Source: Candidatus Omnitrophota bacterium
GTDB taxonomy: Bacteria; Omnitrophota; Gorgyraeia; Zapsychrales; Fredricksoniimonadaceae
Assembly: GCA_015232565.1 (NCBI GenBank)
Contig: JADFZK010000011.1
Coordinates: forward strand, 358-64,357
Direction: 5' to 3'
DNA length: 64,000 nt
This document shows, in pieces, positions 14,548 to 55,813 of the stretch (positions are counted from its first letter, which is position 1; the number at the start of each line of letters is the position of its first letter). The translations under genes were made by a program, and so were the position numbers. A model generated the notes under the pieces. It saw nothing but the letters and a program-made list of their open reading frames with translations, did not search any database and was not told the origin of the DNA.

Positions 14548-17500
14548 TTAGACTGCTTTCTTCTTTGCCGCCTCTAAAGCCAGGCGGAAATCACGCGGAT
14601 AAACCTTAACGAACTGCGGCAAGGTACTGGCCCAGCCATCCAGGAGAGACTTCGCCGTGGTACTGCCGGTATACTGTAAATGGCGCTCGATCATGGTCTT
14701 TAATTCCGCCACATCCTGCTCTTCCTTGACCGGGAACAATTCCACCATGCCCATATTGCACAACTTGCCAAACTTGCCGTCGGGATCCCAAACATAGGCA
14801 ATACCGCCCGACATACCCGCCGCAAAATTGCGCCCCGTACTGCCCAGGACCACCACCCGGCCGCCGGTCATATATTCACAACCATGATCGCCCACACCTT
14901 CCACGACCGCCAAACCACCCGAATTGCGCACCGCAAAACGCTCGCCGGCCACTCCACGGAAATAAGCTTCGCCGCAAATAGCCCCGTAAAGCACCACATT
15001 GCCAGCCAGGATATTCTCGGCGGCCACCAGCGTGGATTTGCTAGCAGGATACACTATAATACGCCCGCCCGACAATCCCTTACCCACATAATCGTTGGCA
15101 TCGCCTGCCAGCTCGAAGGTGACTCCTTTGGAAAGAAAGGCCCCGAAACTCTGCCCGGCCGAACCGCTGAAATCAATGTGGATGGTCTCATCTTTCAACC
15201 CCGCCATGCCATACTTACGGGCAATAGTGGAACTCAACATGGTGCCCACTGTACGATTGACGTTCCGCACCTCGCAGGCAAAGCGGATCGGCGTACCGGT
15301 ATCAATAGCATTATTGCATTTGGCTATAAGCTCATTGTCCAGCGCTTTTTCCAGACCGTGCTCCTGTTTCAGGCAGTGCCGGATCGGAATATTCTTCGGC
15401 ACATCCGCCCGATGCAGGATATTGGCCAGGTCAATGCCCTTTAATTTCCAGTGCCCGATGACTTCTTTCATTTCCAGCATGTCCACCCGGCCGATCATGT
15501 CCTCAAACTTCCGGAAACCCAGCTCGGCCATCAACTCACGAATTTCCTCAGCCACAAAAGTAAAGAAACTCACCACATATTCCGGCTTACCGGCAAAATT
15601 GGCGCGTAAAAGCGGATCCTGGGTAGCAATGCCCACCGAACAAGCATCCAGATGGCATTTGCGCAACATGATACAACCCAGCGTCACCAGCGCTATAGTG
15701 GAAAAACCGAACTCGTCTGCTCCGAGCATGGCGGTAATTACCACATCCCGCCCGGTCTTGAGCTGTCCGTCGGCCTGAACACGAATACGGCCGCGCAGGT
15801 CGTTCATTACCAGCACCTGCTGGGTCTCCGCCAGGCCCAGCTCCATCGGCAGGCCGGCGTGTTTAATTGAAGTCTGCGGCGACGCGCCAGTACCGCCGTC
15901 GTAACCGGAAATAAGCACATGATCGGATTTGCCCTTGGACACCCCGGCCGCCACCGTGCCGACCCCCACTTCGGAAACCAGCTTAACGCTGACATCCGCC
16001 CGCGGATTGGCGTTCTTCAGATCGTGGATCAACTGGGCCAGGTCTTCGATAGAATAAATATCATGGTGCGGCGGCGGCGAGATCAACTGAACGCCCGGGG
16101 TCGTGCCGCGAGTACCGGCGATCTCTTTGGTAACCTTATGGCCCGGCAATTGCCCGCCTTCACCAGGCTTGGCGCCCTGCGCCATCTTGATCTGCATCTG
16201 ATCAGAATTGACCAAATACTCGATATTCACTCCAAACCGTCCCTGCGCCACTTGTTTGATGCGGCTGCGGCGGTAATCTCCATTGGGGTCTTTCTTGAAT
16301 CGACCCGGATCCTCGCCGCCCTCTCCGGTGTTGGAGAATCCGCCCAAGCGGTTCATGGCGATAGCCAAAGTTTCGTGGGCTTCCCGGGAAATAGAACCAT
16401 AACTCATCGCACCGGTAGCAAAACGCTTGACGATCTCGCTGGCCGGTTCGACCTCCGCAATTGGCACCGCCTGGCCCTTCTTAAACTGCATAAGGCCGCG
16501 AATATTAGCCACGGCCCGCCCCGTTTCATTAACGGTACGGGAAAACTTCTTGAACAACTGATAATCGTTGGCGCGCACCGCCTGCTGTAAAGTAGCAATG
16601 ACCTCGGGATTGATCTGGTGGAACTCACCGTCCTTGCGCCAGTGGTACCAACCGCCCTCATCGAGCAGTTCGTCGACCGGCCCAAATTCCGGATAAGCCG
16701 CGGTATGGCGGCGCAAAGTTTCCTCGGCCACGGTCCCGATCTCGATCCCGCCGATGCGCGAAGGCGTGGCGGTAAAATACCTCTCTATTAATTCTTTCCC
16801 CAGGCCCACCGCTTCAAAGATCTGGGCGCCGCAATACGACTGAATAGTCGAAATGCCCATCTTGGAAATAACCTTGAACAAACCCTTGCGCGTCGCCTTG
16901 ATGTAATTCTTCTCGGCGTGATGATAATCCAGGCCGGGGCCTTTAAAATTCCCTTTGGCCACTTCGCTCTCAATGGTTTCCAAAGCCAGGTAAGGATTGA
17001 TCGCATTCGCCCCGTAACCAATCAGGACCGCAAAATGATGCATTTCCCGCGCCTCACCGGTTTCCAATACAATAGAAACCTTGGTGCGCGCACCTTTACG
17101 GATCAAATGATGATGCAAACCGGCACAAGCCAGCAAGGACGGTATGGCCACATTGCGGGCGCTCATTTCCCGGTCGGACAAGACCAGAATGTTCACTCCT
17201 TCGCTCACCGCTTTATCCACCCGGGCAAACAACATGTCCAAAGCTTTGGCCAGGCCAGCCACCCCTTCCGCTTTAGGGAAGACGATCGGCAAAGTAGCGC
17301 TTTTAAGGCCAGTCAAATTAACGTGCGCAACTTGCTCCAGTTCCCGGTTGGTGAGGATCGGGCGGGCCAGCCGCAAACGACGGGCATGCTCCGGCGTTTC
17401 CGCCAGGATATTGCCTTCCGAACCCAGGTACACATTCTCCGCCATCACGATCTCTTCGCGAATAGCATCCACCGGCGGATTGGTAACCTGGGCAAAAAGC

Positions 17501-19065
17501 TGTTTGAAATAATTAAACAAAAGCTGGGGCCGCAAGGAGAGCACCGCGACCGGATTATCGGCGCCCATGGAACCCGTGGCTTCTTCACTATTCTCGACCA
17601 TCGCCTTAAGGACGATCTTCAGGTCTTCCTGGGTGTACCCGAAAGCGCGCTGGCGCTCCAGCAAAGTCTTTTCGTTCAGCCCGCTGACCTTTTTAGGCTC
17701 CGGCAGGTTCTTCACATCAACAATATTGTCCTTCAGCCACTGGCCATACGGCTGGCGGCGGGCATAAGTCTCTTTTATCTCCCGGTCATCAATAATACGT
17801 CCAACCTGGGTATCGATCAGGAACATCTTGCCCGGCTGCAGACGGCCTTTCTTTGCGACCCGCTCCGGAGCAATGGGCAAAACACCCGTCTCGGAAGCCA
17901 TCACAACCAGCCCGTCTTTGGTGATCGTATATCTGGACGGACGCAAACCGTTACGATCCAGAACCGCGCCGATATAACGGCCATCGGTGAAAGCTATGCA
18001 GGCCGGGCCATCCCACGGCTCCATTAAAAGGGAATGATATTCATAAAAAGCCCGTTTCTCCTCGCTGATGGCCTCGTCGCCCACCCAGGCCTCGGGCACC
18101 ATCATCAACACGGCATGCGGCAGGGAACGGCCGGCCATTACCAACAGCTCCAGCGCATTGTCAAAAGAAGCCGAGTCGCTCCCGAAGGGGCCGACGATCG
18201 GATAGATCTTCTTGACATCCTTGCCAAAAAGGTCGTTAGCCATTTGCGCTTCCCGCGCGCGCATCCAGTTCAAATTCCCGCGCAGGGTATTGATCTCGCC
18301 GTTATGGGCCATCATGCGGTACGGATGCGCCAAAGACCAGGTCGGAAAAGTATTGGTACTGTAGCGCGAATGGACCAGCGCCAGGGCTGAAGTCATGTCG
18401 GGATCGGCCAGGTCGGCAAAGAACGGACCCAGCTGTTCGGCCATGAACTGGCCTTTATAAACCAGCGTTTGCGACGACAGGCTGCAAACGTAAAAATAAC
18501 TGCGGTCATGCACGGTGGAAGTGTGCACCTTGGTCCAACAGCGCTTGCGCAGAACGTAAAGCTTACGCTCAAACTCTTCCGGCTTCGTATCCACGCCGCG
18601 GCCAATGAACAACTGCCGCAGTTCCGGCTGTACCGAATGCGCCACCCGGCCCACATGCCGATCATCATGCGGAATAACGCGCCAGCCCAAAAACTGCTGG
18701 CCTTCCTCACGGATGATCTGCTCCACCCACTCCTCGATAATATTACACGACTGAGTTTCGCCGGGCAAAAACACCAGCCCGCAGGCATAGTCTCCGGCCG
18801 CCGGCAACTCAAAACCTTCCGCCTTGGCCGCCTTGCGCAGGAACTGGTCGGGCATCTGCAGTAAAATACCCGCGCCATCCCCAGTTAAAGGATCACACCC
18901 GCAAGCGCCGCGGTGCGACAGGTTCTCCAGGACCTGAAGGCCCTGCCGGACGATATCATGCGACTTGCGCCCCTGGATGTCTGCCACAAAGCCGACACCG
19001 CAAGCGTCATGTTCGAATTGGGGGTCGTAAAGCCCCTGTTTGGACGGTAAGCCACTAATGTTCAT
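14548..19065 (-). CDS. gltB: Glutamate synthase large subunit (ferredoxin/NADPH type)
   Basis: 1505 aa. N-terminal Ntn amidotransferase (FEHDACGVGF), central domain, FMN-binding domain and GXGXG C-domain. Confidence 0.96.
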   Translation of the reverse strand: MNISGLPSKQGLYDPQFEHDACGVGFVADIQGRKSHDIVRQGLQVLENLSHRGACGCDPLTGDGAGILLQMPDQFLRKAAKAEGFELPAAGDYACGLVFLPGETQSCNIIEEWVEQIIREEGQQFLGWRVIPHDDRHVGRVAHSVQPELRQLFIGRGVDTKPEEFERKLYVLRKRCWTKVHTSTVHDRSYFYVCSLSSQTLVYKGQFMAEQLGPFFADLADPDMTSALALVHSRYSTNTFPTWSLAHPYRMMAHNGEINTLRGNLNWMRAREAQMANDLFGKDVKKIYPIVGPFGSDSASFDNALELLVMAGRSLPHAVLMMVPEAWVGDEAISEEKRAFYEYHSLLMEPWDGPACIAFTDGRYIGAVLDRNGLRPSRYTITKDGLVVMASETGVLPIAPERVAKKGRLQPGKMFLIDTQVGRIIDDREIKETYARRQPYGQWLKDNIVDVKNLPEPKKVSGLNEKTLLERQRAFGYTQEDLKIVLKAMVENSEEATGSMGADNPVAVLSLRPQLLFNYFKQLFAQVTNPPVDAIREEIVMAENVYLGSEGNILAETPEHARRLRLARPILTNRELEQVAHVNLTGLKSATLPIVFPKAEGVAGLAKALDMLFARVDKAVSEGVNILVLSDREMSARNVAIPSLLACAGLHHHLIRKGARTKVSIVLETGEAREMHHFAVLIGYGANAINPYLALETIESEVAKGNFKGPGLDYHHAEKNYIKATRKGLFKVISKMGISTIQSYCGAQIFEAVGLGKELIERYFTATPSRIGGIEIGTVAEETLRRHTAAYPEFGPVDELLDEGGWYHWRKDGEFHQINPEVIATLQQAVRANDYQLFKKFSRTVNETGRAVANIRGLMQFKKGQAVPIAEVEPASEIVKRFATGAMSYGSISREAHETLAIAMNRLGGFSNTGEGGEDPGRFKKDPNGDYRRSRIKQVAQGRFGVNIEYLVNSDQMQIKMAQGAKPGEGGQLPGHKVTKEIAGTRGTTPGVQLISPPPHHDIYSIEDLAQLIHDLKNANPRADVSVKLVSEVGVGTVAAGVSKGKSDHVLISGYDGGTGASPQTSIKHAGLPMELGLAETQQVLVMNDLRGRIRVQADGQLKTGRDVVITAMLGADEFGFSTIALVTLGCIMLRKCHLDACSVGIATQDPLLRANFAGKPEYVVSFFTFVAEEIRELMAELGFRKFEDMIGRVDMLEMKEVIGHWKLKGIDLANILHRADVPKNIPIRHCLKQEHGLEKALDNELIAKCNNAIDTGTPIRFACEVRNVNRTVGTMLSSTIARKYGMAGLKDETIHIDFSGSAGQSFGAFLSKGVTFELAGDANDYVGKGLSGGRIIVYPASKSTLVAAENILAGNVVLYGAICGEAYFRGVAGERFAVRNSGGLAVVEGVGDHGCEYMTGGRVVVLGSTGRNFAAGMSGGIAYVWDPDGKFGKLCNMGMVELFPVKEEQDVAELKTMIERHLQYTGSTTAKSLLDGWASTLPQFVKVYPRDFRLALEAAKKKAV

Positions 19066-19107
19066 GGGAAGAACTCCAAAAGTTAAGGATGCTCAAAGGG
19101 GGTTATT

Positions 19108-19911
19108 TTAAGTCCGCGGCCGGGCAAAAGCAACTGTTTTTTCGAGGGGCCGTTTACGTGCGATCAGGATCAATGACTGGCCAAAAGGCGGCGGGCAAAA
19201 GCTTTCCATTGCGCGCAGGAACGGCACGATCCGGTCCAGCGCCGCGCACGTTACGGGATCGAATCTTTGCTGACGCAAAATTCTGCCAGCGATAAACCAG
19301 GAAAAAACGCCCAGAGCATTCATGTAATATGCCCGCTCCACCTGCAAGCCGGCGGCCACCATCTTTTGCCCCAATTCCCTCCGGGTATAACGGCGCACAT
19401 GCCCCACCATATTGTCCAGGGAGCCGTGAATGGCCGGCAGAGCCGGAACCATGATCAACAAACGCCCTCCCGGAGCCAGAATGCGCGTCATATTGCCAAT
19501 TGCTGCCACATCATCGTCAATGTGCTCAAGAACATTCAACGCAATGACCGTATCCGGCAAATGCTCCTGGATAATGGTCGATCTCTCCAAAGCTGAAATA
19601 TCGGCCAACGGTAAAACCTCGTAACGCGGCTTACGACCGGCAAAACGTTTTTGCAGGAAGGCGGCCATTTCCGGGGCATGATCTGACAGGATGATCCTGT
19701 CTACCGACGGCAGATCATACAGCTCGGCCATATCGCCGCGGCCACTGCCCACATCGAAAACCACGCCGGATAAATACGGCCGAAAATGCGCCATGACCCA
19801 TTGATTATACCGGTCCGCCCGGGCCACAACCTCCAAAGTCGCAAACAGTTCACTCATTTTACGCCCGCCCCGGCACTGGAGATATTTCTGTTTATAAAAT
19901 ACAGCCCACAA
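19108..19911 (-). CDS. Class I SAM-dependent methyltransferase. The likely true start is the internal MSELFATLEV at about 19857.
   Basis: VFDVGSGRGDMAE motif I (GxGxG-like) and acidic motif II; 267-aa ORF. Confidence 0.7.
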   Translation of the reverse strand: MWAVFYKQKYLQCRGGRKMSELFATLEVVARADRYNQWVMAHFRPYLSGVVFDVGSGRGDMAELYDLPSVDRIILSDHAPEMAAFLQKRFAGRKPRYEVLPLADISALERSTIIQEHLPDTVIALNVLEHIDDDVAAIGNMTRILAPGGRLLIMVPALPAIHGSLDNMVGHVRRYTRRELGQKMVAAGLQVERAYYMNALGVFSWFIAGRILRQQRFDPVTCAALDRIVPFLRAMESFCPPPFGQSLILIARKRPLEKTVAFARPRT

Positions 19912-20057
19912 TCCTTAGCATTCCCCAACCTTAAAATATAATCGACCACTGCAAACCACACTGGTGCGTAACCAGAAATATTTCTTTACTGTAACAAAAT
20001 GTTATATAGGATGCTTTTTGTGTCAATCAACCCTTATAACAACAGCCAACAGATTGT

Positions 20058-20756
20058 TTGATGAAGATTTCTATCCTTATCCCCGTTTTTAATGAGTCAG
20101 CTACAATCTTAGCGCTTATCGACAAAGTGCTGGCCGCCGATCTACCCGCTGGGATAACCCGGGAAATACTGGTTATAAATGACGGCTCACGGGATCAAAC
20201 ATCCTCTCTGCTCAAATCCCTGACAGAAAATCCGCTAATCCGCCGCTTTGACCACCCGGTCAACCTTGGAAAAACTGCGGCTATCAGAACAGGTTTCCAA
20301 CATGCCGTTGGCGATATCATCATCATTCAAGATGCCGACCTGGAATACGACCCCTGCCAATATTCTTTATTGCTAGACCCGATACTGACCAGGAACAAAT
20401 CCATTGTTTACGGATCACGGCTAATGCGCAAATCAAACAAAATATACGCCATTAATTATTTAGCCAACAGAGCGGCGGTCATTACACTCAACTGGCTATT
20501 CAAAACACAATTGACCGATTTTCACACAGGATTCAAAGTGTTTAAAAGAAGCCTGCTTGAAGGCATAATCCTGACTTCTGAAAACTTTTCATTTGATACA
20601 GAATTAACCGCAAAATTTCTGGCCAAAGGGCTGGAGATCCACGAAGTGCCCATCGATTATGTACCCCGCACAAAGAAACAAGGCAAAAAGATCACCTGGG
20701 GACAAGCTTTCGAAACATATCTTGTTCTGTTCAAATGCCGCTTTACCCAAAGATAA
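20058..20756 (+). CDS. GT2 family glycosyltransferase, DPM1/GtrB-like polyprenyl-phosphate hexose synthase type (soluble, 232 aa)
   Basis: SILIPVFNE ... VINDGSRD ... QDADLEYDP (DAD motif). AT-richer than the core genes. Converges on the rSAM gene with a 14-nt 3' overlap. Confidence 0.8.
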   Translation: MMKISILIPVFNESATILALIDKVLAADLPAGITREILVINDGSRDQTSSLLKSLTENPLIRRFDHPVNLGKTAAIRTGFQHAVGDIIIIQDADLEYDPCQYSLLLDPILTRNKSIVYGSRLMRKSNKIYAINYLANRAAVITLNWLFKTQLTDFHTGFKVFKRSLLEGIILTSENFSFDTELTAKFLAKGLEIHEVPIDYVPRTKKQGKKITWGQAFETYLVLFKCRFTQR

Positions 20757-21783
20757 AAGCACCCAAGTTCCCAACAATGGTCGGATACGCTTCGCAGGGA
20801 GCCCAACAGCGCGGACAATCCATATTCTCGATCTGCTTCTTTAACGACTGCACCTCAGGATGCGCAATGATCCTGCCAATATCATAATCATTATCGCTTA
20901 ATTTACCTATGGGCCGATCATAAAACAAACAAGGAAACACCATGCCATACGCATCCACAAAAACACTGCCATGCAAAGCCTGACAGACAAAAGGGATCTT
21001 TTCACCTTTCCAGTGTTTATCCAAATAACGCATATATCTGTCTTCCAGAAAGCCTTTAAACGAGAACGCCTTCTTAAAACTTCGTAAAGATGCCCGAAGA
21101 TGCTTCAGATCCACCCCTTCGCACCCTTTTGCTCCCATGGCCTGATTGCCATAATAATGCCCGGAAACATGATAAAAGTTAAAGTGCAAGTCGTCGGCCG
21201 TAAAACCAGGAAGATCTTTTTTAAGGCCAACAATGAATTCCTCCACATATTCAAAGTTCAAAGCTGAAATGGTACAAGAAATTGAAACCCGGCCTTTCTT
21301 AAGGCGCTTCACAGCCTTAAATGTTTCGATACCGCGCGCATATGAGCCCTGGTGCCCGCGCAATTGATCATGAACACCTTCGGGACCATCAAGGCTTATT
21401 GAGATCATCGGACTTTGCCTGAGCCGAATTATCTCCTGCGCCACTTTGACCATTCGATCAGGAAACATCCCATTGGTCGTCATATGAAGGATCTTTAAAT
21501 TCTTAGACTGCCCTATAATTACCCGAACAACATCGATCAAGTCTTCTCTCAAGGTAAGTTCGCCACCCGTAAGATCCAACCAGCTCAAATTGGGCAATTT
21601 CCGAAACATCCTTTCTATTTCACCAACCGACAGCTCTGATCGCAAAGGCATTTTCCAAATAGAACAGATCTTACATTTCAAATTACACCTGAAAGTCAGG
21701 CAAAAAAGCAACTTTGCCACCGACTTCAACTGCCGGGCGTTTGCTCGATACACATTCTTCAAAAAAGTCAGGTTTTTACCCAT
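20743..21783 (-). CDS. Radical SAM protein with a C-terminal SPASM/twitch-like Cys cluster
   Basis: CNLKCKICSIW (CX3CX2C) near the N-terminus, and CQALHGSVFVDAYGMVFPC ... CPRCWAPC in the C-terminal third. Low GC (~35-40%). Confidence 0.75.
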   Translation of the reverse strand: MGKNLTFLKNVYRANARQLKSVAKLLFCLTFRCNLKCKICSIWKMPLRSELSVGEIERMFRKLPNLSWLDLTGGELTLREDLIDVVRVIIGQSKNLKILHMTTNGMFPDRMVKVAQEIIRLRQSPMISISLDGPEGVHDQLRGHQGSYARGIETFKAVKRLKKGRVSISCTISALNFEYVEEFIVGLKKDLPGFTADDLHFNFYHVSGHYYGNQAMGAKGCEGVDLKHLRASLRSFKKAFSFKGFLEDRYMRYLDKHWKGEKIPFVCQALHGSVFVDAYGMVFPCLFYDRPIGKLSDNDYDIGRIIAHPEVQSLKKQIENMDCPRCWAPCEAYPTIVGNLGAFIFG

Positions 21784-21812
21784 AGCCCTGTAAAATCGAT
21801 TAGTTAGTCCCG

Positions 21813-23690
21813 TCAGTTATTGCGTTTAGGATCAAGATAAAGCCTAAAGCCCTTTATTTCAGCCGCCTTAATGAACTGCCGACCATTAAAAACGTCTGCT
21901 CCGGAAATGTTTTCTCCCCCCAGGTCAATTACCGCACAAGGCGTGAATTCTCCCAAAGGATACCCGAGCGCCGAAACCGGCCCCACCACATTAACATGTT
22001 CTACCCGAACATCCGGCCCCAACAGAGCCTGCCAAGTATACTCCCACGCATCCGACCCTAAAATGATACCAACATTGCGGCACCCCATCCCGTTCAATGA
22101 CTCGGACACCTGATCAACCAATGAATATTCCCCGGGATGTTTTGCAAAATAATTCTGTGTGCGACTAAAGCGGAGCAAGCTTTTCTCGGATAACAAGCGC
22201 CGTGTATTGTTTAATACCAAAGGCTGTATGGCCACCAGGAACGCTACCAAGACAGCTCCAATGAGTAATTTGCGCGAAGCGGCCTTCTCAAATACCACCG
22301 CCACTAGCGGCATAGCCATTATAAAAAGCGGCAAGTGTAACCGGCTTATAAAAGGGTTCCATTGAGCCAAAATACAAAACATCAAAGTCTGACATAATCC
22401 TGTCATAACAAAAAACCATAAAACACGCTCTTTATTCCGCACTCGCCAAAACAATGCCCCCGCAATAACGACCAAAAACATATGAAAAGAATTTGGCATA
22501 TAATCTTCATCCAGATAATACCACAAACGCAAAGGCGCTCCCTCTGCTGGAATATTACACACCTTATCCCACTGCAAAACGACACTCTCAATAAAACGAT
22601 TCCACTCTTTCCCAGGCAACGCAAGCTGCGTTGCCGCATTCTTCAAAACATTTGAAACTATTTCCACGCCTCCCACTCGCACCATTGCGGCGTCGCCGCC
22701 TTTTTTCATGGCGACAATGACATTTTTATCCACCTGCGTCAGTCGACACAAGAATGAACCATTAATGATCCCCACCATAAACAACGTTAAAATTAACAAC
22801 CACGCTTTACGGCGAATTCCAACTCCAGAAGAAAACATCACTACCAAAACCGCAGTAACAGCCAAAAACCAACCCGAACCTTTGGTAAAAGCTGCCAAGC
22901 CCGCTCCTGCCGCGGTAAGCCAAAGCCACCTGCCTTGCCCGCTTAATAATACCTTCAATGCAAAACAGGCCGTACACAATACCAAGAAAGCAACCACGTA
23001 ATCATTCTGGGTACTTGAACCCTGCAGTATGCCCATAGGCAGGGTCAATGCCAACAAGGCCGCCGTAATCTGCCCTAAACGCGACGCTCCTAGCAAACCA
23101 GCGGCCAAAGACACTCCCAAAGCCGAACACACCATTGCCGACCATTGCACCATATTGGCGCATCGATCCCCTCCGCTCAATATCTGCAAATGCAGAATAA
23201 TATATTCAGCAAAAGGCAAATACACCAACTGTCGAATAATGTTCGTAGGATAATTCATGACACTGCTATTCTGCCGCCAATGGCCCACGCGCGCCATGTG
23301 ATAGGTCATCGAATCCCAGGTATTCGGCGGCGCATACAAAGCAATAAATCCCACCACCAGCACAATGAAGGCGGCCATACTCAAAAGGACTTTTTCAATC
23401 CAGGTTAAGGACCAACACGGCCATGACCAACGGCCAACGGAAGCAATACGCGCAATCATAAAACTTATGGCCACCACCAGCAAAGACCAGAACGTTAACA
23501 GGGAGAAGAAATTGATCTGCCGGATAGGAGAAAGCGCTTCGGTGGAAAAAACGATAAGAACGCCGCTGATCACATTGGCCGCCAGCAAAGCCTCGCGCGC
23601 TTCCAACCCGCGCAAGGTCAGCCAACGCCATAATAATAAGATAAAAACCAGCGGCAAAAACGCAAAAACTATCATAAACCCAAATTCCAT
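21813..23690 (-). CDS. Polytopic membrane protein, GT-C-like putative glycosyltransferase (copy A of a tandem pair)
   Basis: 625 aa, >10 predicted TM helices, conserved loop PPNTWDSMTYHMARVGHW. N-terminal ~225 aa nearly identical to copy B; C-terminal half diverged and lower GC. Confidence 0.55.
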   Translation of the reverse strand: MEFGFMIVFAFLPLVFILLLWRWLTLRGLEAREALLAANVISGVLIVFSTEALSPIRQINFFSLLTFWSLLVVAISFMIARIASVGRWSWPCWSLTWIEKVLLSMAAFIVLVVGFIALYAPPNTWDSMTYHMARVGHWRQNSSVMNYPTNIIRQLVYLPFAEYIILHLQILSGGDRCANMVQWSAMVCSALGVSLAAGLLGASRLGQITAALLALTLPMGILQGSSTQNDYVVAFLVLCTACFALKVLLSGQGRWLWLTAAGAGLAAFTKGSGWFLAVTAVLVVMFSSGVGIRRKAWLLILTLFMVGIINGSFLCRLTQVDKNVIVAMKKGGDAAMVRVGGVEIVSNVLKNAATQLALPGKEWNRFIESVVLQWDKVCNIPAEGAPLRLWYYLDEDYMPNSFHMFLVVIAGALFWRVRNKERVLWFFVMTGLCQTLMFCILAQWNPFISRLHLPLFIMAMPLVAVVFEKAASRKLLIGAVLVAFLVAIQPLVLNNTRRLLSEKSLLRFSRTQNYFAKHPGEYSLVDQVSESLNGMGCRNVGIILGSDAWEYTWQALLGPDVRVEHVNVVGPVSALGYPLGEFTPCAVIDLGGENISGADVFNGRQFIKAAEIKGFRLYLDPKRNN

Positions 23691-23697
23691 TTTAATC

Positions 23698-25590
23698 TTA
23701 AAATGCTATCTGTCGCGAAAGAGCAGAGTTCACATAAAGCGCAAACTCTGCCACTTCACCCGCCTTAATGAAAGATATACCCTGAAAAACCACCTCCCGC
23801 ACCCTGTCGGCAGTAGCCATGTCGATAACAGCGCAAGGGGCAAACTCACCCTTTGGGTACGCCCATGCCGCCATCACGCCACCCACACCTACATGCTCAA
23901 CGCGCACCTCAGGACCCAATAAAACCTGCCAGGGATACTCCCACTCATCACTGCCAAGCCTTACGCCGACATCGCGGCATGCCAACTCCCGCAAAGCTTT
24001 GGCCACCGGTGCAACCTTAAAATACCACCCTCGGTCCCTGACAAAATAAAGTTGTTCCCGACTAAACAGGAACATGCTTTTATTTGAAAACAACCGGCGC
24101 GTATTATTCAAGCCCAATGGTTGTGCCGCCGCCAGAAAAGTCACCACCAGAACGCCTATAAAAACCTTTCGTGGCATGCACTTCTCAAATATTACCGCAG
24201 TCAACGGCATCGCCAGGACAAAAAAAGGCAAATGAAAACGCCCGATCCAGGGCTGCCATTGTACCGTTACACAAAACAATAGCGCGCCAATTGCTAATGT
24301 CGCCGCATACCAACGCATTGCGGGAACCTTAAATCCATTGAACCAAAAACCACACGCCGAAATAAGAAACAAAAACAAATGCAAAGGATTAACAGCTACA
24401 TCTTCATCCATTTCATAAGTCACGGAAAAAGATGGCTCCAACTTATTCCCAACCGCAGAAGCATATCCACCAAGCAACGCCTGCCCACTTTTCACACCCG
24501 CGTATACGGCTTTATTCCAATCTTCCAGGGGCAAGGCGGCCTGAACAGCCAAGCTCTTTAACATATTTGCGAGCGTTTCCGCAACCCCCAGCCTTTCCAT
24601 TGAAACCCGTCCACCCGTTTCCATAGCCACTAAAGGATTGCGATCAATATCCAGCAACCTGAAACAGAACGAACCGGCGAACAACATCACCGCGAACACG
24701 CTTAAACCCAGGAACACCGCTTTACGGCGCACAGCCGCTTTGGCGAAGAATAACCATGCCAGCACCACTGCGCCTGCCAACAAAAGGCCCAGGCCTTTGG
24801 TCAAAGCCGCCAGGCCCACACTCGCCGCGGCCAAGCCCAACCACCGGCGCTGAGGACTGCTGAAGGTCTTTAACAAAAAGCACATGGCCGACAAAACCAG
24901 CACCGCCACCACGTAATCGTTCTGGGTGCTGGAACCTTGCAAAATACCCATCGGCAAAGTCAGTGCCAATAAAGCCGCCGCGATCTGCCCCAGGCGCGAA
25001 GCGCCCAGCAAGCCGGCGGCCAAAGACACGCCAAAAGCCGAACACACCATGGCCGACCACTGCACCATATTGGCAAACCGGTCGCCGCCAGTTAAAACCT
25101 GTAAATGCAGGATCACATACTCGGCGAACGGGAACATTACCAGCTGGCGGATGATGTTCGTAGGATAATTCATTACACTGCTGTTCTGCCGCCAATGGCC
25201 CACGCGCGCCATGTGATAGGTCATCGAATCCCAGGTATTCGGCGGCGCATACAAAGCAATAAATCCCACCACCAGCACAATGAAGGCGGCCATACCCAAA
25301 AGGACTTTTTCAATCCAGGTTAAGGACCAACGCGGCCAGGACCAGCGGCCGACGGAAGCAATACGCAAAAGCCTAAAGCTTATGGCCACCACCAGCAGAG
25401 ACCAGAACGTTAACAGCGAGAAGAAATTGATCTGCCGGAAAGGAGAAAGCGCTTCGGTGGAGAAAACGATAAGAACGCCGCTGATCACATTGGCCGCCAG
25501 CAAAGCCTCACGCGCCTCAAAGCCGCGCAAGGTCAGCCAGCGCCACAGCAACCCGGTGAATATTAACGGCAGGACGGCGAATACGAACAT
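23698..25590 (-). CDS. Polytopic membrane protein, GT-C-like putative glycosyltransferase (copy B of the tandem pair)
   Basis: 630 aa, same N-terminal core as copy A (long stretches of nucleotide identity, e.g. 23230-23400 vs 25145-25320), distinct C-terminal ~400 aa. Confidence 0.55.
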   Translation of the reverse strand: MFVFAVLPLIFTGLLWRWLTLRGFEAREALLAANVISGVLIVFSTEALSPFRQINFFSLLTFWSLLVVAISFRLLRIASVGRWSWPRWSLTWIEKVLLGMAAFIVLVVGFIALYAPPNTWDSMTYHMARVGHWRQNSSVMNYPTNIIRQLVMFPFAEYVILHLQVLTGGDRFANMVQWSAMVCSAFGVSLAAGLLGASRLGQIAAALLALTLPMGILQGSSTQNDYVVAVLVLSAMCFLLKTFSSPQRRWLGLAAASVGLAALTKGLGLLLAGAVVLAWLFFAKAAVRRKAVFLGLSVFAVMLFAGSFCFRLLDIDRNPLVAMETGGRVSMERLGVAETLANMLKSLAVQAALPLEDWNKAVYAGVKSGQALLGGYASAVGNKLEPSFSVTYEMDEDVAVNPLHLFLFLISACGFWFNGFKVPAMRWYAATLAIGALLFCVTVQWQPWIGRFHLPFFVLAMPLTAVIFEKCMPRKVFIGVLVVTFLAAAQPLGLNNTRRLFSNKSMFLFSREQLYFVRDRGWYFKVAPVAKALRELACRDVGVRLGSDEWEYPWQVLLGPEVRVEHVGVGGVMAAWAYPKGEFAPCAVIDMATADRVREVVFQGISFIKAGEVAEFALYVNSALSRQIAF

Positions 25591-25593
25591 TAA

Positions 25594-26277
25594 TTAAAAC
25601 CTGTACTTGATAATGGCCCCATACATTCCCAAAGCTTTCGGCCAATTGATCTTTTTACCTTGCACAATTGACCGCGCCTGATATTTAACGGGAACCTCCA
25701 CTATACGCACACCACGGCGCACCAGTTTAGCCGTGACCTCGGTCTCAAAAGAGAAATGATCCGACTCCAGCGCGATCGCTTTGATATCCTGCGCACGAAA
25801 CAACTTGAAACAGGTATTAATATCGGTCAGCCGGGTGCCAAATAACAGATTAAACGTGACGTTGGAAACCACATTCGCGAAACGATTCATCGGCGCCATG
25901 CCCTCGATAACGCCCTTGAAGCGGGAACCATACACCGCATCGGCCTGGCCGCTGAGGATCGGCGCCAGCAACCGGGGGTATTGCGCGGGATCATATTCCA
26001 GGTCGGCATCCTGGATCAGCACCAGCCCGCCGGTGGCTTCCTTGATGCCGCGGCGGATAGCCGCGGTCTTGCCCTGGTTGGTTTGCTGAAAGACCTTCAC
26101 GAAACGGTCGCCATCGAAACGGCCCAGCGCTCCGGCCGTGCCATCGGTAGAGCCGTCGTTGATCACCAGGATCTCGCGCTCCCAACCCAAAGGCAACACC
26201 ACCGCTTTCACCGCGTTAATAACCTCGACGACCGTACGCTCTTCATTGTAAGCCGGAATAATAACCGAAAGTTTCAC
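25594..26277 (-). CDS. GT2 family glycosyltransferase, DPM1/GtrB-like (paralog of 20058..20756, ~50% aa identity, opposite orientation)
   Basis: SVIIPAYNE ... [10 protein letters not shown] ... QDADLEYDP. 4-nt overlap with nadE. Confidence 0.8.
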
Positions 26278-27902
26278 AATACCGCCTTGTACCGGTTGGT
26301 AAGCGGCAAGCGCCAGTCTTTGCCGAAAGCCCGCTTGGAGATCTTGACCCCTGGAGGAGCCTGGCGTCTTTTATACTCACTTTTATCCACCAGCTCAACA
26401 ACTTTCCGGGCCATTTTAATATCACCACAAGACCGGCCCATGGCTCCCAAAGAACGATGGCCTTCAACATAAAGATTCAACAGGTCATCCAGCACCGGAT
26501 AAGGCGGCAGGGAATCCTGGTCTTTCTGTCCGGCCTTCAGCTCCGCGGACGGAGCACGGGCAATGACCGAGAGCGGAATAACCGCTTTACCGGCCCGGGC
26601 ATTAACCTGCCGGGCCAGCTCATACACTTTGGTTTTATAGATATCCTTAATGACCGCATACCCGCCGGACATATCGCCATAAAGGGTACAATAACCCGTA
26701 GCCATCTCGCTTTTATTGCCGGTAGTCAGAACCAGCCAGCCGAATTTGTTCGAAAAAGACATCAGCAGGTTCCCCCGGATGCGCGACTGCAAATTCTCCT
26801 CGGCCAGTCCGGAAGGCGTCCCTTTAAAATATGGCTTTAAGGTCTGTAAAAAAGCCGTCACTACTGCTTCGATGGGGATCTCGTGAAAAGCCACACCCAG
26901 GTTCCTGGCCACCCGACGGGCATCATTTCGGGTGGCGGCTACATTAAAACGGGTCGGCATGGAAATACACACCACATTCCGGGGGCCGACCGCATCGGCC
27001 GCGATCGCCGCCACTAAAGCCGAATCAATGCCTCCGGAAAGGCCGATCAGGACTTTCTGAAAACCGTTCTTGCGGATATAATCCCGGGTACCCAGCAAAA
27101 CCGCCTCATACATTTCTTCTATCCGCGGCAAAGGCGCCGGCACCGCCGCCCGCTTCTTACCAGGCAGATTAACCGGCAAATCAACCAATACCAGGTCTTC
27201 CCGGAACTGAGCGCCGGACGCCAGGCAGCGGCCTTGCGGATCCACGACCAGGCTGGAGCCATCAAAAACCAGCTCGTCCTGCCCGCCCACCAGGTTAACA
27301 TACACAATGAACGCGCCAGTCTCCCGAGCGCGCCGCGCTATAAGTTTCACCCGCTCTTCCCGTTTGCCGAACTCATACGGGGAGCTGGAAATATTAACAA
27401 TGATCCTGGCGCCCGCCGCCGCCTGAGCCTGAAAAACCCCGCCGTCCACCCAGATATCTTCACAAACATTTACCGCTATTTTCTCGCCTTTAAGCGAAAA
27501 CAATTTAAAACCCCGGCCCGGAGTAAAATACCGCTTCTCATCAAAAACACTATAATTCGGCAGGGCTTGCTTGTGATAAATGTATTTCACTCCGCCATCG
27601 GCAATAACCGCCGCGGCATTATAAAGCTCCCCACCGGGGCCGCGATCCACAAAACCCACCACCGCCGTAATGCCGCTTACCTGGCGGGCCACGGTCAGCA
27701 GGCTCTTAAGGTTACCGCCAATAAAATGATCCTTGAACAACAGGTCTTCCGGCGGATAACCGGTGGTGGCCAATTCGGGGAAAACCACCAGGTCCGCCCC
27801 GCGTTCCCGCGCCGCTACGCATTGTTCCACAACCTTGCGGGCATTACCTTCCAGGTCGCCCACCGTTGTATTGATCTGTGCCAACGCCACCCGTAAGCTC
27901 AT
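26274..27902 (-). CDS. nadE: Glutamine-dependent NAD+ synthetase (CN-hydrolase domain plus NAD synthetase domain)
   Basis: 542 aa. N-terminal nitrilase-like domain ([12 protein letters not shown]) and C-terminal [10 protein letters not shown]-loop. Confidence 0.93.
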
Positions 27903-28075
27903 TTAGACCTCATTATCGCCAAAATATAGCATCGTTTTAATAAACAGAATCATATCATATGCCCTTATTTAATTACGAACTTTTCTCTGCTTAGAGCCTG
28001 CAATGAAAAAAGGGCTCAAACGCAATATCAGCATCTGAGCCCTTTCTCCTCATCGTACTTTTCAAACTATCACTT

Positions 28076-30175: not shown

Positions 30176-30202
30176 ACATGCCTCCACTTATTTAAGATTT
30201 AC

Positions 30203-34023: not shown

Positions 34024-34161
34024 TTACGGCAAGCCGACCGGCTGGGCATTGTTGCAATTCAGGGACCACACACTGCCTGTCATCTGCATCATATTGATGA
34101 CCACCGGAGCAAAGCAGTCCACGCCGCGGGTCTTGATGCGCTGGATCTTAAACGTGTTCAT
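34024..34161 (-). CDS. 45-aa ORF that duplicates the C-terminal 40 residues of the giant protein (MNTFKIQRIKTRGVDCFAPVVINMMQMTGSVWSLNCNNAQPVGLP). Its ATG overlaps the yhcG-like stop (ATGA).
   Basis: Derived by reverse-complementing 34024-34161; not in the ORF track (<60 aa). It lies within direct-repeat copy A. Confidence 0.35.
   Translation of the reverse strand: MNTFKIQRIKTRGVDCFAPVVINMMQMTGSVWSLNCNNAQPVGLP
34026..34148. repeat. Direct-repeat copy A (123 bp, ~92% identical to 35335..35457)
   Basis: Direct alignment: acggcaagccgaccggctgggcattg...gcgctggatct. Confidence 0.9.
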
Positions 34162-55803: not shown

Positions 55804-55813
55804 AATTACCTTA

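What the first reader, a model, noticed from the sequence alone, without database searches (positions are those of the whole stretch)
19108..26277. Low-GC glycosylation island with tandem mosaic GT-C-like paralogs, an inverted GT2 pair and a SPASM radical-SAM enzyme
Between gltB and nadE sits a ~7-kb block: SAM-methyltransferase, a DPM1-like GT2 on the plus strand, a radical-SAM/SPASM gene, two tandem GT-C-like polytopic membrane proteins (A and B), and a second DPM1-like GT2. The two GT-C genes share a near-identical 5' ~690 bp (N-terminal ~225 aa, TM core with the PPNTWDSMTYHMARVGHW loop). The rest of each protein, the C-terminal ~400 aa, diverges. This pattern is typical of gene conversion that maintains a catalytic core while acceptor-specificity domains diversify, as with GtrC or YfhO-type systems. 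The segment ~20050-22800 (GT2a, rSAM, 3' two-thirds of GT-C A) is clearly AT-richer than its neighbours (~35-45% vs ~58-60% by eye), suggesting a horizontally acquired module later partly homogenised with the resident copy. The two GT2 paralogs bracket the island in inverted orientation, and GT2a and the rSAM gene converge with a 14-nt overlap. A radical-SAM/SPASM enzyme inside a lipid-carrier glycosylation module is not a described combination that I recognise, and its substrate (peptide, glycan or lipid) is unknown.
Basis: partly seen in the sequence, partly recalled or inferred. Interest (0 to 1): 0.72.

Follow-up and report, generated by a model that had tools for sequence, protein, structure and literature searches.

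The report
Variable surface-sugar locus with radical enzyme
An uncultured Omnitrophota bacterium carries, between two housekeeping genes, a fast-changing gene block for attaching sugars to its cell envelope. The block holds two half-identical membrane sugar-transferases and an uncharacterised radical-SAM enzyme whose family sits next to the same kinds of sugar genes in many bacterial and archaeal phyla.

Summary
Two figures need correcting. GC is 0.42-0.46 against about 0.53-0.57, not 35-45 against 58-60. The 5' ends of A and B are 84% identical as DNA; only about 360 nt are near-identical.

Gene conversion is supported. N-terminal trees join A with B (bootstrap 100), while C-terminal trees join each with its ortholog in a sister genome.

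The nadE-gltB junction is a variable glycosylation site in related Omnitrophota. Two genomes hold only GT2b plus one GT-C. One holds MT, GT-C, GT2 and GT-C. One holds the same layout as here but with a non-orthologous rSAM and MT.

The rSAM matches no curated family. Its five conserved C-terminal cysteines look twitch-like, and its best fold matches are SkfB and the sugar enzyme BlsE. Relatives occur in 534 species genomes. In 50 of 79 loci examined, a small GT2 or a PMT_2-type GT-C lies within three genes.

Best reading: two polyprenyl-phosphate-sugar/GT-C pairs, one using a sugar tailored by the rSAM and perhaps the MT. The substrate is inferred, not shown. I found no published description. 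This is a new variant of a known kind.

The parts
19108..19911 (-). Class-I SAM-dependent methyltransferase. The likely true start is the ATG at 19857 (residue M19). It has core-like GC (0.546), and the sister genome has a non-orthologous MT in the same slot.
   Evidence: Pfam Methyltransf_23/11/12/25. No curated NCBIfam membership. Only 34% identity over 58 aa to the L008 MT. L010 and L091 lack it.
19912..20057 (.). The only sizeable intergenic gap in the block (146 nt), lying between the divergent MT and GT2a genes. It holds the two best promoter-like sites in the region, one on each strand.
   Evidence: Promoter scan: + strand 19915-19942 and - strand 20026-19999, 10 of 12 matches each. The total number of sites is no higher than in shuffles. 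No Rfam match. Only chance-sized small ORFs of 20-42 aa.
20058..20756 (+). GT2a: a soluble GT2 of about 230 aa, consisting of the catalytic domain of a polyprenyl-phosphate sugar synthase, with no TM helix. It is low in GC (0.439, GC3 0.481).
   Evidence: Pfam Glycos_transf_2, 97.6 bits. The best solved homologs are Pyrococcus Dol-P-Man synthase, ArnC and GtrB. The best NCBIfam hits are AglJ, PgfS, PpgS and ArnC, all below cutoff. No TM segment. It is 65% identical to L008 GT2a and 46% to GT2b.
20743..21783 (-). Radical-SAM enzyme with a twitch/SPASM-type C-terminal Fe-S domain. It is the last gene of the nadE-GT2b-B-A-rSAM string, is low in GC (0.441), and belongs to an uncurated, widespread family associated with glycan loci.
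21813..23690 (-). GT-C A: a polytopic GT-C-fold glycosyltransferase (11-13 TM helices plus a C-terminal alpha/beta domain). Its 3' two-thirds are low in GC.
   Evidence: PMT_2 25.3 bits, just below the gathering score of 26.1. AF2 pLDDT 95.3. Foldseek PDB top hits are AftB, ArnT, Pmt4, STT3, DPY19 and Emb. The ortholog of its C-terminal part is L008 GT-C A.
23698..25590 (-). GT-C B: a tandem paralog of A; B's stop codon lies 7 nt upstream of A's start codon. Its C-terminal part is orthologous to L008 GT-C B; its N-terminal part has been converted to A-type.
   Evidence: PMT_2 28.1 bits. C-terminal clade (W_B, L8_B) bootstrap 100; N-terminal clade (W_A, W_B) bootstrap 100. The N-terminus of W_B is closer to L8_A (65% and 76% in the two segments) than to L8_B (58% and 65%).
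23256..23615 (-). Recent gene-conversion tract, copy in A. It includes the invariant PPNTWDSMTYHMxRV loop. The perfect 112-nt run is at 23269-23380.
   Evidence: Identity of 88-100% in 60-nt bins. Third-position identity is 91% over codons 21-140, against a background of 40-50%.
25171..25530 (-). Recent gene-conversion tract, copy in B. The perfect run is at 25184-25295.
22986..23270 (-). Codons 141-235 of A, matching B at 24901-25185. Protein identity is 91% but third positions match at only 49%. This is either an older homogenisation or unusually strong shared constraint.
   Evidence: Every other pairing among the five related GT-Cs compared (W_A, W_B, L8_A, L8_B, L10) is 62-77% identical in this segment.
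25594..26277 (-). GT2b: the resident small GT2. It overlaps the end of nadE by 4 nt and lies 3 nt upstream of B. It is present at this position in four of the five related loci compared; in the fifth (L092, which lacks nadE) a 231-aa GT2 of unchecked orthology precedes the distal GT-C.
   Evidence: Pfam Glycos_transf_2, 96.9 bits. It is 74-75% identical to the GT2 after nadE in L008 and L010. The same nadE-GT2 overlap is seen in L008, L010 and L091.
19800..22800 (.). Low-GC block covering GT2a, rSAM and the 3' two-thirds of GT-C A.
   Evidence: 400-nt windows read 0.42-0.49 here against a mean of 0.529 elsewhere. GC3 is 0.48 against 0.60-0.67.
26274..27902 (-). nadE (glutamine-dependent NAD synthetase). 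It heads the co-directional gene string and forms the conserved left border of the variable site.
   Evidence: Pfam NAD_synthase plus CN_hydrolase. It is 80-83% identical to L008 and L010 nadE.
14548..19065 (-). gltB (glutamate synthase large subunit), the conserved right border of the variable site.
   Evidence: It is 87-88% identical to the L008 and L010 genes that carry GATase_2, Glu_syn_central, Glu_synthase and GXGXG.

Best explanation
The block is a hypervariable envelope-glycosylation locus at a fixed chromosomal site (nadE | gltB) in a clade of Omnitrophota.

It encodes two donor-synthase/transferase pairs of the Arn/Gtr/PPM type. Each small GT2 (GT2b, GT2a) would load a sugar from a nucleotide sugar onto polyprenyl phosphate at the cytoplasmic face. 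After flipping, each GT-C (B, A) would transfer that sugar to an acceptor outside the cytoplasmic membrane.

The GT2b/GT-C pair is the conserved minimal state and is tightly packed behind nadE (4-nt overlap). The second pair comes with tailoring genes: a twitch/SPASM-type radical-SAM enzyme and a SAM methyltransferase. I infer that these chemically alter the sugar donor before GT-C A uses it. The radical step could be H-atom abstraction leading to epimerisation, oxidation, deoxygenation or decarboxylation. It could act either on the polyprenyl-phosphate-linked sugar or on its nucleotide-sugar precursor.

Repeated gene conversion, running from A-type into B, keeps the conserved N-terminal GT-C module the same in both enzymes. 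That module holds the first membrane helices and the invariant WDSMTYH loop. The variable C-terminal module stays distinct.

The tailoring genes are exchangeable: a sister genome carries an unrelated rSAM and MT in the same slot.

Shown here: gene identities and folds, the conversion, the locus variability, and the family-wide association of the rSAM with glycan genes. Inferred: the sugar, the acceptor, the rSAM reaction and substrate, and which GT-C uses which donor.
For: Gene identities:
- GT2a's best solved relatives are all polyprenyl-phosphate sugar synthases: DPMS, ArnC and GtrB. Its top NCBIfam hits are of the same kind.
- The A model has a GT-C fold, with AftB, ArnT and Pmt4 as top matches. 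From general knowledge, these enzymes use polyprenyl-monophosphate sugars.

Operon:
- nadE-GT2b-B-A-rSAM run in the same direction, with a 4-nt overlap and gaps of 3, 7 and 29 nt.

Variable site:
- L010 and L091 hold GT2b plus one GT-C.
- L092 holds MT, GT-C, GT2 and GT-C.
- L008 holds GT2b, B, A, GT2a, rSAM' and MT'.

Conversion:
- Segment identities and third-position identities and incongruent bootstrapped trees.

rSAM family:
- 534 loci in 185,579 species genomes, spread over many bacterial phyla, CPR, Methanosarcinales and DPANN.
- In 79 non-redundant loci, a small GT2 lies within 3 genes in 33, a GT-C in 37, either in 50, both in 20, and a carbamoyltransferase in 13.
- Small GT2 takes 12% of the +-1 positions against 2% at 4 or more genes away (p = 1e-4).
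- 38 of the 44 neighbours I labelled GT-C hit Pfam PMT_2.
- The remaining adjacent genes are mainly GT9, NDP-sugar epimerases/dehydratases, methyltransferases and B12-rSAMs.
- Examples with Pfam labels come from an acidobacterium, an archaeon and others.

Fold and slot-mate:
- The unrelated rSAM' of L008 also belongs to a family found next to GT2, WbqC and formyltransferase genes.
Against: - No biochemical evidence exists. Every related genome is a MAG except Luteitalea.
- The rSAM family also occurs in loci with GT9 and NDP-sugar genes but no GT2 or GT-C nearby (29 of 79). The specific link to the lipid-carrier step is therefore not universal, and a nucleotide-sugar substrate is at least as likely.
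- Enrichment of GT-C near the rSAM is modest compared with the outer flanks of the same loci (11% against 5-7%, p = 0.01-0.03).
- GT2a is no closer to other rSAM-adjacent GT2s than GT2b is (27-30% identity), so there is no sign that GT2a and the rSAM evolved together.
- No flippase gene lies in the block.
- A's PMT_2 score is just under Pfam's threshold, and structural similarity to solved GT-Cs is distant (TM 0.43-0.56).
Confidence: 0.55

Rival explanations
1. The rSAM is a general glycan or LPS-core tailoring enzyme acting on a soluble nucleotide sugar or on a finished glycan. On this view its position next to GT-C A and GT2a here is just cluster packing, with no dedicated link to the lipid-carrier pair.
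For: 29 of 79 loci have neither GT2 nor GT-C within 3 genes. Adjacent genes there include GT9 (13), NDP-sugar epimerases/dehydratases (12) and GT1/4 (4). The closest homolog, P0002, sits downstream of NTP-transferase, epimerase, dehydratase, GT4 and oxidoreductase genes. From general knowledge, the known sugar-acting rSAMs BlsE and DesII use soluble nucleoside- or nucleotide-linked sugars.
Against: A small GT2 is sharply enriched at the immediately adjacent position. The trio rSAM, GT2 and PMT_2 recurs in an acidobacterium, an archaeon and other lineages. In the window, the rSAM is the next gene after GT-C A, 29 nt away.
Confidence: 0.25
2. The rSAM is a peptide or protein maturase, either RiPP-type or anSME-like, modifying a peptide or one of the envelope proteins rather than a sugar.
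For: Most characterised SPASM/twitch enzymes act on peptides. The top sequence and fold hit is the RiPP maturase SkfB, and anSME, SuiB, CteB and PqqE also rank high.
Against: There is no N-terminal extension for a peptide-recognition domain, since the CX3CX2C motif starts at residue 33. The only intergenic gaps are 146 and 29 nt, with no plausible precursor ORF. No protease or transporter genes are present. Neighbours across 79 loci are glycan genes, not RiPP genes. No long ORF in the family is a domain fusion.
Confidence: 0.05
3. The rSAM modifies the lipid rather than the sugar: either the polyprenyl carrier or a membrane lipid that then becomes glycosylated.
Against: Similarity to the lipid enzymes is weak compared with SkfB and BlsE. 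The protein has no membrane segment. There are no lipid-synthesis genes among the neighbours.
Confidence: 0.07
4. The N-terminal identity of A and B reflects purifying selection on a very conserved core, or an assembly collapse, rather than gene conversion.
For: The N-terminal core is highly conserved across the whole family, and many invariant residues lie in residues 117-230. Codons 141-235 are 91% identical as protein while synonymous sites are saturated. The sequence comes from a MAG.
Against: Third-position identity is 91% over codons 21-140, with a perfect 112-nt run, against a background of 40-50%. The orthologous pair in the sister genome is only 52-62% identical in the same segments. 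Bootstrap support is 100 for (A, B) at the N-terminus but 100, 92 and 70 for the orthologous pairings further along. An assembly collapse would not leave two complete, in-frame, tandem genes with diverged flanks.
Confidence: 0.04

Closest known systems
Arn pathway of lipid A modification (ArnC GT2, ArnD tailoring of the undecaprenyl-phosphate-linked sugar, ArnT GT-C)
   Same: The logic is the same: a GT2 polyprenyl-phosphate sugar synthase, a tailoring step on the donor, then a GT-C that transfers the sugar outside the cytoplasmic membrane. ArnC is among GT2a's best solved homologs and ArnT among GT-C A's best fold matches.
   Different: The Arn pathway has no radical-SAM step; its tailoring is a deformylase (general knowledge). 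GT2a and GT2b lack ArnC's membrane helices. There is no NCBIfam ArnC or ArnT membership. Here there are two GT2/GT-C pairs and no ArnE/F-type flippase genes. The acceptor is unknown.
Gtr serotype-conversion cassettes (GtrA flippase, GtrB GT2, variable GtrC) and YfhO/GtcA-type systems
   Same: A conserved polyprenyl-phosphate sugar synthase is paired with a variable polytopic transferase. The locus content varies between close relatives. GtrB is a solved homolog of GT2a.
   Different: No GtrA is present. There is no YfhO Pfam hit (Pfam returned only PMT_2 for A and B). The block is not phage-borne and shows no integrase, tRNA or boundary repeats. It also contains a radical-SAM enzyme and two transferases homogenised by conversion.
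Sugar-modifying twitch radical-SAM enzymes (BlsE, BtrN, DesII, AprD4)
   Different: Identity is only 13-18% (AprD4 6%). Those enzymes work in antibiotic pathways on soluble substrates, not next to GT2/GT-C genes. A fifth invariant cysteine (C330) is present here.
Lipid-linked sugar tailoring before GT-C use in mycobacteria (DprE1/DprE2 epimerisation feeding AftB/Emb; PpgS with Rv3779)
   Same: A polyprenyl-phosphate monosaccharide is altered, or is made by a small TM-less GT2 such as PpgS, and then used by a GT-C. AftB is the top fold match of GT-C A. PpgS is among GT2a's top NCBIfam hits, at 67 bits and below cutoff.
   Different: The tailoring there is flavin/NADH redox chemistry rather than radical SAM (general knowledge). 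There is no sequence-level family membership.
Hopanoid side-chain genes HpnI (GT2), HpnK and HpnJ (radical SAM)
   Same: From general knowledge, this is a precedent for a GT2 and a radical-SAM enzyme acting in turn on a lipid-bound sugar.
   Different: HpnJ is a different, B12-domain rSAM family. Only HpnH and HpnB gave weak hits here, below cutoff. That system has no GT-C and no polyprenyl-phosphate carrier.

Membership tests
GT-C fold glycosyltransferases | Polytopic membrane protein whose fold matches solved GT-C enzymes | tested here: met
   There are 11-12 hydrophobic segments. The AF2 model has pLDDT 95.3. All Foldseek PDB hits with E below 1e-3 are GT-Cs: AftB, ArnT, Pmt4, STT3, DPY19 and Emb, at TM 0.37-0.56.
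GT-C fold glycosyltransferases | Conserved acidic residue in the first extracytoplasmic loop | tested here: inconclusive
   D126 in the WDSMTYH loop is invariant in 65 family members and sits in a short helix after the fourth TM helix of the model. Its sidedness and catalytic role were not tested.
Pfam PMT_2 (PF13231; GT39/GT83-like) | Score at or above the gathering threshold of 26.1 bits | tested here: inconclusive
   B scores 28.1 bits (passes) and A scores 25.3 bits (just fails). Many family members carry a precomputed PMT_2 hit and many do not.
Protein O-mannosyltransferases (GT39, Pfam PMT) and ArnT (GT83) | Match to the PMT model, or to the ArnT equivalog models | tested here: not met
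   There is no PF02366 hit and no NCBIfam hit at all for A or B. A profile of the family finds no solved structure by sequence. NCBI's label 'glycosyltransferase family 39' is not backed by these tests.
YfhO / GtrC-type transferases | Match to the YfhO (PF09586) or GtrC-type models | tested here: not met
   Pfam returns only PMT_2 for A and B.
Polyprenyl-phosphate sugar synthases of GT2 (DPM1/ArnC/GtrB/PpgS type) | GT2 catalytic domain with a DxD motif, most similar to known members | tested here: met
   Glycos_transf_2 scores 97.6 and 96.9 bits. The QDADLEYD motif is present in both proteins. The top solved homologs are DPMS, ArnC and GtrB.
Polyprenyl-phosphate sugar synthases of GT2 (DPM1/ArnC/GtrB/PpgS type) | Membership of a curated equivalog (AglJ, ArnC, PpgS, PgfS) | tested here: not met
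   The best hits are AglJ at 91.8 bits (GT2a) and 129.2 bits (GT2b) against a cutoff of 325; all others are further below. There are no C-terminal TM helices.
Radical SAM superfamily | CX3CX2C cluster motif and a Pfam Radical_SAM match above threshold | tested here: met
   C33-x3-C37-x2-C40 is invariant in 65 homologs. PF04055 scores 47.9 bits against 29.5. The GGE motif (G73, G74, E75) is invariant.
SPASM subfamily (two auxiliary clusters) | Seven-cysteine motif CX9-15GX4C ... CX2CX5CX3C ... C | tested here: not met
   Pfam SPASM passes weakly (24.2 against 21.5 bits). However, only five C-terminal cysteines are invariant, spaced C267-x17-C285 ... C323-x2-C326-x3-C330. The two best fold matches, SkfB and BlsE, are, from general knowledge, twitch enzymes with one auxiliary cluster.
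Curated rSAM families in NCBIfam (including AlbA, SkfB, anSME-like, HpnH, Tes, PTO1314) | Score above the family cutoff | tested here: not met
   The best hit is PTO1314 at 62.5 bits against a cutoff of 306. All 56 hits lie far below their cutoffs.
RiPP maturase systems | Precursor peptide gene and a peptide-recognition domain or accessory genes | tested here: not met
   There is no space or ORF for a precursor and no N-terminal domain ahead of the cluster motif. The neighbours are glycan genes.

The most novel reading that the evidence does not exclude
The rSAM belongs to a large, unnamed family, present in at least 534 species genomes across Bacteria, CPR and Archaea. On the most novel reading, this family carries out radical chemistry on polyprenyl-phosphate-linked monosaccharides. 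That would be a new kind of tailoring step between the GT2 donor synthase and the GT-C transferase, producing envelope sugars not yet described. Different rSAM families would then be interchangeable in this slot as a way of diversifying the cell surface.
Probability: 0.25. Interest if true: 0.8.

Novelty: new variant of a known kind. Interest (0 to 1): 0.55.

Why it matters
Glycosylation through a polyprenyl-phosphate sugar and a GT-C (Arn, Gtr, PPM/PMT, Emb/Aft) underlies antibiotic resistance, serotype switching and cell-wall assembly. No radical-SAM step is known in it. A conserved rSAM partner found from Omnitrophota to Acidobacteria, CPR bacteria and archaea would point to unknown sugar chemistry and unknown envelope structures in largely uncultured lineages. 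One cultured host, Luteitalea pratensis, makes the idea testable. The locus also gives a clean natural example of segmental gene conversion that follows the boundary between the conserved and variable modules of GT-C enzymes. It also shows that a surface-glycan hot spot can sit inside a nitrogen-metabolism gene string.

Tried and rejected
- **Precursor peptide or RiPP reading.** I listed all ORFs of 20 aa or more in 19850-21850. Coding density leaves only 146-nt and 29-nt gaps. Rejected.
- **Riboswitch or other RNA in the block.** Rfam at E up to 1 on 18800-28300 found nothing.
- **Mobile-element borders.** No boundary direct repeats were found, and neither the ORF list nor the Pfam scans of the block's genes and several neighbouring ORFs showed an integrase or transposase. 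No tRNA scan was run. The terminator and promoter scans were no richer than shuffled sequence.
- **Domain fusions of the rSAM.** Six long ORFs in high-GC loci have no extra Pfam domains; their N-terminal extensions look like start-codon artefacts.
- **Co-evolution of GT2a with the rSAM.** GT2a is no closer than GT2b to the 22 rSAM-adjacent GT2s. Not supported.
- **B as the resident GT-C and A as the newcomer.** The single GT-C of L010 and L091 groups weakly with A (bootstrap 19-26). Unresolved, so not claimed.
- **My first GT-C profile.** Built only from relatives of A, it found 13 hits. An iterated profile seeded with Pfam-labelled PMT_2 neighbours found 70, and these were then checked with Pfam.
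- **Literature.** Seven searches combined radical SAM or SPASM with GT-C, ArnT, polyprenyl or dolichol phosphate, heptosyltransferase or Omnitrophota. None found a description of this combination. The one Omnitrophota preprint mentions radical SAM only in a domain co-occurrence list. The library lacks most subscription journals.

Full report
**Source and layout**

The window matches a Candidatus Omnitrophica MAG contig of 65,326 bp; the rSAM and both GT-C proteins are 100% identical to NCBI entries from it.

| Gene | Coordinates | Strand |
|---|---|---|
| gltB | 14548-19065 | - |
| Methyltransferase (MT) | 19108-19911 | - |
| GT2a | 20058-20756 | + |
| rSAM | 20743-21783 | - |
| GT-C A | 21813-23690 | - |
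| GT-C B | 23698-25590 | - |
| GT2b | 25594-26277 | - |
| nadE | 26274-27902 | - |
| Type III glutamine synthetase | 28076-30187 | - |

nadE, GT2b, B, A and rSAM form one tightly packed co-directional string, with a 4-nt overlap followed by gaps of 3, 7 and 29 nt. GT2a converges on the rSAM with a 14-nt overlap. GT2a diverges from the MT across the only real intergenic gap (146 nt), which holds the two best promoter-like sites in the region.

**Gene identities**

- Pfam gives Glycos_transf_2 for both small GTs, Radical_SAM plus a weak SPASM hit, and class-I methyltransferase domains. For the two large proteins it gives only a weak PMT_2 hit: A at 25.3 bits (just under the 26.1 threshold) and B at 28.1 bits.
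- No protein in the block reaches any curated NCBIfam cutoff.
- GT2a's best solved relatives are all polyprenyl-phosphate sugar synthases: Pyrococcus Dol-P-Man synthase, ArnC and GtrB. Both GT2s carry the QDADLEYD motif and have no membrane helix.
- An AlphaFold model of GT-C A is confident (pLDDT 95.3). Every significant Foldseek hit in the PDB is a GT-C enzyme: AftB, ArnT, Pmt4, STT3, DPY19 and Emb. The similarity is distant (TM 0.43-0.56), and a family profile finds no solved structure by sequence.
- The GT-C fold is therefore established. Membership of GT39/PMT, ArnT or YfhO/GtrC is not.

**Composition**

GC falls to 0.42-0.46 from about 19800 to 22800 (mean 0.447), against 0.529 +/- 0.042 in the rest of the window. 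The drop shows at synonymous sites: GC3 is 0.48 for GT2a and rSAM, against 0.60-0.67 for MT, GT2b, nadE and gltB. It is therefore not a side effect of hydrophobic protein composition. A second equally low-GC stretch lies at 35.9-38.0 kb.

**The two GT-C paralogs**

Overall identity is 62%. The table gives A-versus-B identity by segment.

| Residues | Protein identity | Third-position identity |
|---|---|---|
| 21-140 | 94% | 91% |
| 141-235 | 91% | 49% |
| 236-400 | 41% | 42% |
| 401-625 | 48% | 45% |

Third positions in all other comparisons match at 33-53%, so 49% is background. As DNA, the first 720 nt are 84% identical (114 mismatches). The truly near-identical tract is about 360 nt long and contains a perfect 112-nt run (A 23269-23380, B 25184-25295).

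A sister genome (L008, GCA_015233765.1) has the same tandem pair. Comparison with it shows the following:

- In the C-terminal segment, W_B is closest to L8_B (59%) and W_A to L8_A (51%).
- In the N-terminal segments, L8_A and L8_B are only 52-62% identical to each other.
- W_B's N-terminus is closer to L8_A than to L8_B.

Neighbour-joining trees with 200 bootstraps give:

| Segment | Clade | Bootstrap |
|---|---|---|
| 21-235 | (W_A, W_B) | 100 |
| 236-400 | (W_A, L8_A) | 92 |
| 401-625 | (W_B, L8_B) | 100 |
| 401-625 | (W_A, L8_A) | 70 |

The duplication therefore predates the split of the two genomes. In this lineage the N-terminal third of B was overwritten by A-type sequence. This happened at least once recently (codons 21-140) and probably once earlier (codons 141-235).

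The converted part covers the first six or seven membrane helices of the model, including the loop APPNTWDSMTYHMxRVxHW, which is nearly invariant across the family. From general knowledge of GT-C structures, this matches the conserved module, while the remainder is the variable module. Note that divergence begins inside the membrane domain, not at a separate soluble domain.

**A variable site**

Five related Omnitrophota loci share the flanking genes (GAF-ANTAR regulator, GS-III, nadE, gltB, gltD, a TPR protein and Lnt) but differ in between:

| Locus | Content between the flanks |
|---|---|
| L010, L091 | GT2b plus a single GT-C |
| L092 | MT, GT-C, GT2, GT-C (no rSAM in the block, no nadE) |
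| L008 | GT2b, B, A, GT2a (inverted), rSAM', MT' |
| Window | GT2b, B, A, rSAM, GT2a (inverted), MT |

- GT2a is orthologous between the window and L008 (65% identity).
- The rSAM and the MT are not orthologous. The rSAMs share 23% identity over the core only, and the MTs share one 58-residue stretch. The order of GT2a and rSAM is also swapped.
- The closest relative of the window's rSAM (P0002, 58% identity) lies in a 39%-GC genome, where the gene itself is 36% GC.
- The tailoring genes therefore behave as exchangeable cargo, and a low-GC origin for the rSAM is plausible.
- The fuller story, in which a whole foreign module was homogenised with a resident copy, is not established. A is at least as old at this site as B, and the single GT-C of the minimal loci groups weakly with A.

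**The radical-SAM enzyme**

- It has the canonical cluster motif (C33, C37, C40) and the GGE motif. Only five C-terminal cysteines are invariant in 65 homologs: C267, C285, C323, C326 and C330.
- This falls short of the seven-cysteine SPASM signature. From my memory of BtrN, the spacing looks like a single-cluster twitch domain.
- The model is confident (pLDDT 92.5).
- BlsE, BtrN, DesII and AprD4, all among the hits, act on sugars. SkfB, SuiB and anSME act on peptides. The fold alone cannot decide between the two.

**Gene context of the rSAM family**

Context does help to decide.

- The family has at least 325 clusters at E up to 1e-5 (the 120 listed reach 1e-64 or better) in the protein collection.
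- It has 534 confirmed loci among 185,579 species genomes. These span Omnitrophota, Acidobacteriota, Myxococcota, Desulfobacterota-type lineages, Binatia, Gemmatimonadota, Planctomycetota, Bacteroidota, Spirochaetota, Nitrospirota, Latescibacterota, Proteobacteria, CPR groups, Methanosarcinales and DPANN archaea.
- Pfam-labelled neighbourhoods include:
  - Luteitalea pratensis: rSAM, GT2, carbamoyltransferase, PMT_2.
  - An archaeon: GT2, GT2, rSAM, PMT_2, PMT_2, carbamoyltransferase.
  - A Vicinamibacterales MAG: PMT_2, PMT_2, GT2 divergent from the rSAM.
  - A JGI contig: PMT_2, GT2, rSAM, PMT_2.
- Using my own profiles on 79 non-redundant loci, a small GT2 lies within three genes in 33, a GT-C in 37, either in 50, both in 20, and a carbamoyltransferase in 13.
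- 38 of the 44 neighbours I labelled GT-C were confirmed as Pfam PMT_2.
- Small GT2 fills 12% of adjacent positions against 2% at four or more genes away (p = 1e-4). GT-C enrichment is weaker (p = 0.01-0.03).
- The other adjacent genes are mostly GT9 heptosyltransferase-family (13), NDP-sugar epimerases/dehydratases (12), methyltransferases (9), B12-rSAMs (8-9) and GT1/4 (4).
- There are no fusions and no room for a precursor peptide.
- The unrelated rSAM' of L008 also belongs to a family found beside a membrane-anchored GT2, and beside WbqC and formyltransferase genes.

**Interpretation**

The best-supported reading has four parts.

1. The locus encodes two polyprenyl-phosphate-sugar/GT-C pairs that decorate an acceptor outside the cytoplasmic membrane. 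The organism encodes Lnt, which fits a diderm envelope.
2. One pair draws on a donor tailored by the rSAM and perhaps by the MT.
3. Conversion keeps the donor-binding and catalytic module of the two transferases the same, while their variable modules differ.
4. The content of the locus turns over between relatives, as at other surface-glycan loci.

Still inferred: whether the rSAM acts on the lipid-linked sugar or on its nucleotide precursor, which reaction it catalyses, and what the acceptor is. Because a sizeable minority of family members sit with GT9 and NDP-sugar genes but no GT2 or GT-C, the soluble-substrate version is a serious rival.

**Comparison with known systems**

The logic is that of Arn (ArnC, ArnD, ArnT), Gtr cassettes, and mycobacterial DprE/Aft or PpgS/Rv3779. 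No curated family membership is met, and none of these systems has a radical-SAM step. I found no paper describing the combination in seven full-text searches, although the library omits most subscription journals. I therefore rate this a new variant of a known kind. It has moderate interest as it stands, and high interest if the lipid-stage radical tailoring proves true.

Noticed in passing
window 35333-39283 (-), with low GC at about 35900-38000: A 1316-aa ORF with no Pfam match has the same low GC (below 0.46) as the glycosylation block. It lies next to a YhcG/DUF1016 PDDEXK nuclease gene (34158-35258). The syntenic locus L010 also begins with a large (1246-aa) protein that has no Pfam hits.
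   Followed up: partly
window 27903-28075, compared with L008:206-895, L010:7010-7702 and L092:3875-4567: Three related genomes carry a class-I glutamine amidotransferase gene of about 230 aa between GS-III and the nadE/glycosylation block. The window has only a 173-nt gap there, and L091 likewise has no full-length gene there, only a 65-aa ORF.
   Followed up: no
window 26274-26277; L008:2505-2508; L010:9312-9315; L091:7309-7312: nadE overlaps the start of GT2b by 4 nt in every genome of this clade that has both genes. A housekeeping NAD synthetase therefore appears to be translationally coupled to an envelope glycosyltransferase.
   Followed up: partly
window 22986-23270 and 24901-25185 (codons 141-235 of GT-C A and the matching part of B): Protein identity is 91% while third codon positions match only at background level (49%). 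The A copy is much more AT-rich here (GC 0.39-0.40 against 0.51). An older conversion followed by compositional drift is one explanation. A shared constraint, such as a common partner, is another. Neither was tested.
   Followed up: partly
L003:1-3482 (Omnitrophota GCA_030649895.1): Upstream of a member of the rSAM family lies a further string of rSAM, rSAM/SPASM and PMT_2. The middle gene is distantly related (24% identity) to the rSAM' of L008. Several different rSAM lineages may therefore pair with GT-C genes.
   Followed up: partly
L005, L006, L013, L015, L020, L025, L035, L039, L069, L086, L088 and others: A NodU/CmcH-type carbamoyltransferase (Carbam_trans_N/C) lies within three genes of the rSAM in 13 of 79 loci. 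It usually sits together with GT2 and PMT_2, which hints at carbamoylated sugars in those versions of the module. The window has no such gene.
   Followed up: partly
L029 (CAMBZJ010000006.1): A contig labelled 'MAG: Klebsiella pneumoniae' carries a member of this rSAM family. The label may reflect mis-binning or misnaming.
   Followed up: no
window 19108-19911 and 20058-20756: The listed ORFs start at TTG codons. In-frame ATGs at 19857 (MT, residue M19) and 20061 (GT2a, second residue) are more likely starts. NCBI also starts GT-C A five codons later, giving 620 aa.
   Followed up: no
window 54322-55923 (-): This is the only other weak GT2-like hit in the window (E 1e-7 with my GT2 profile). 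No other GT-C or rSAM family member lies outside the block.
   Followed up: no
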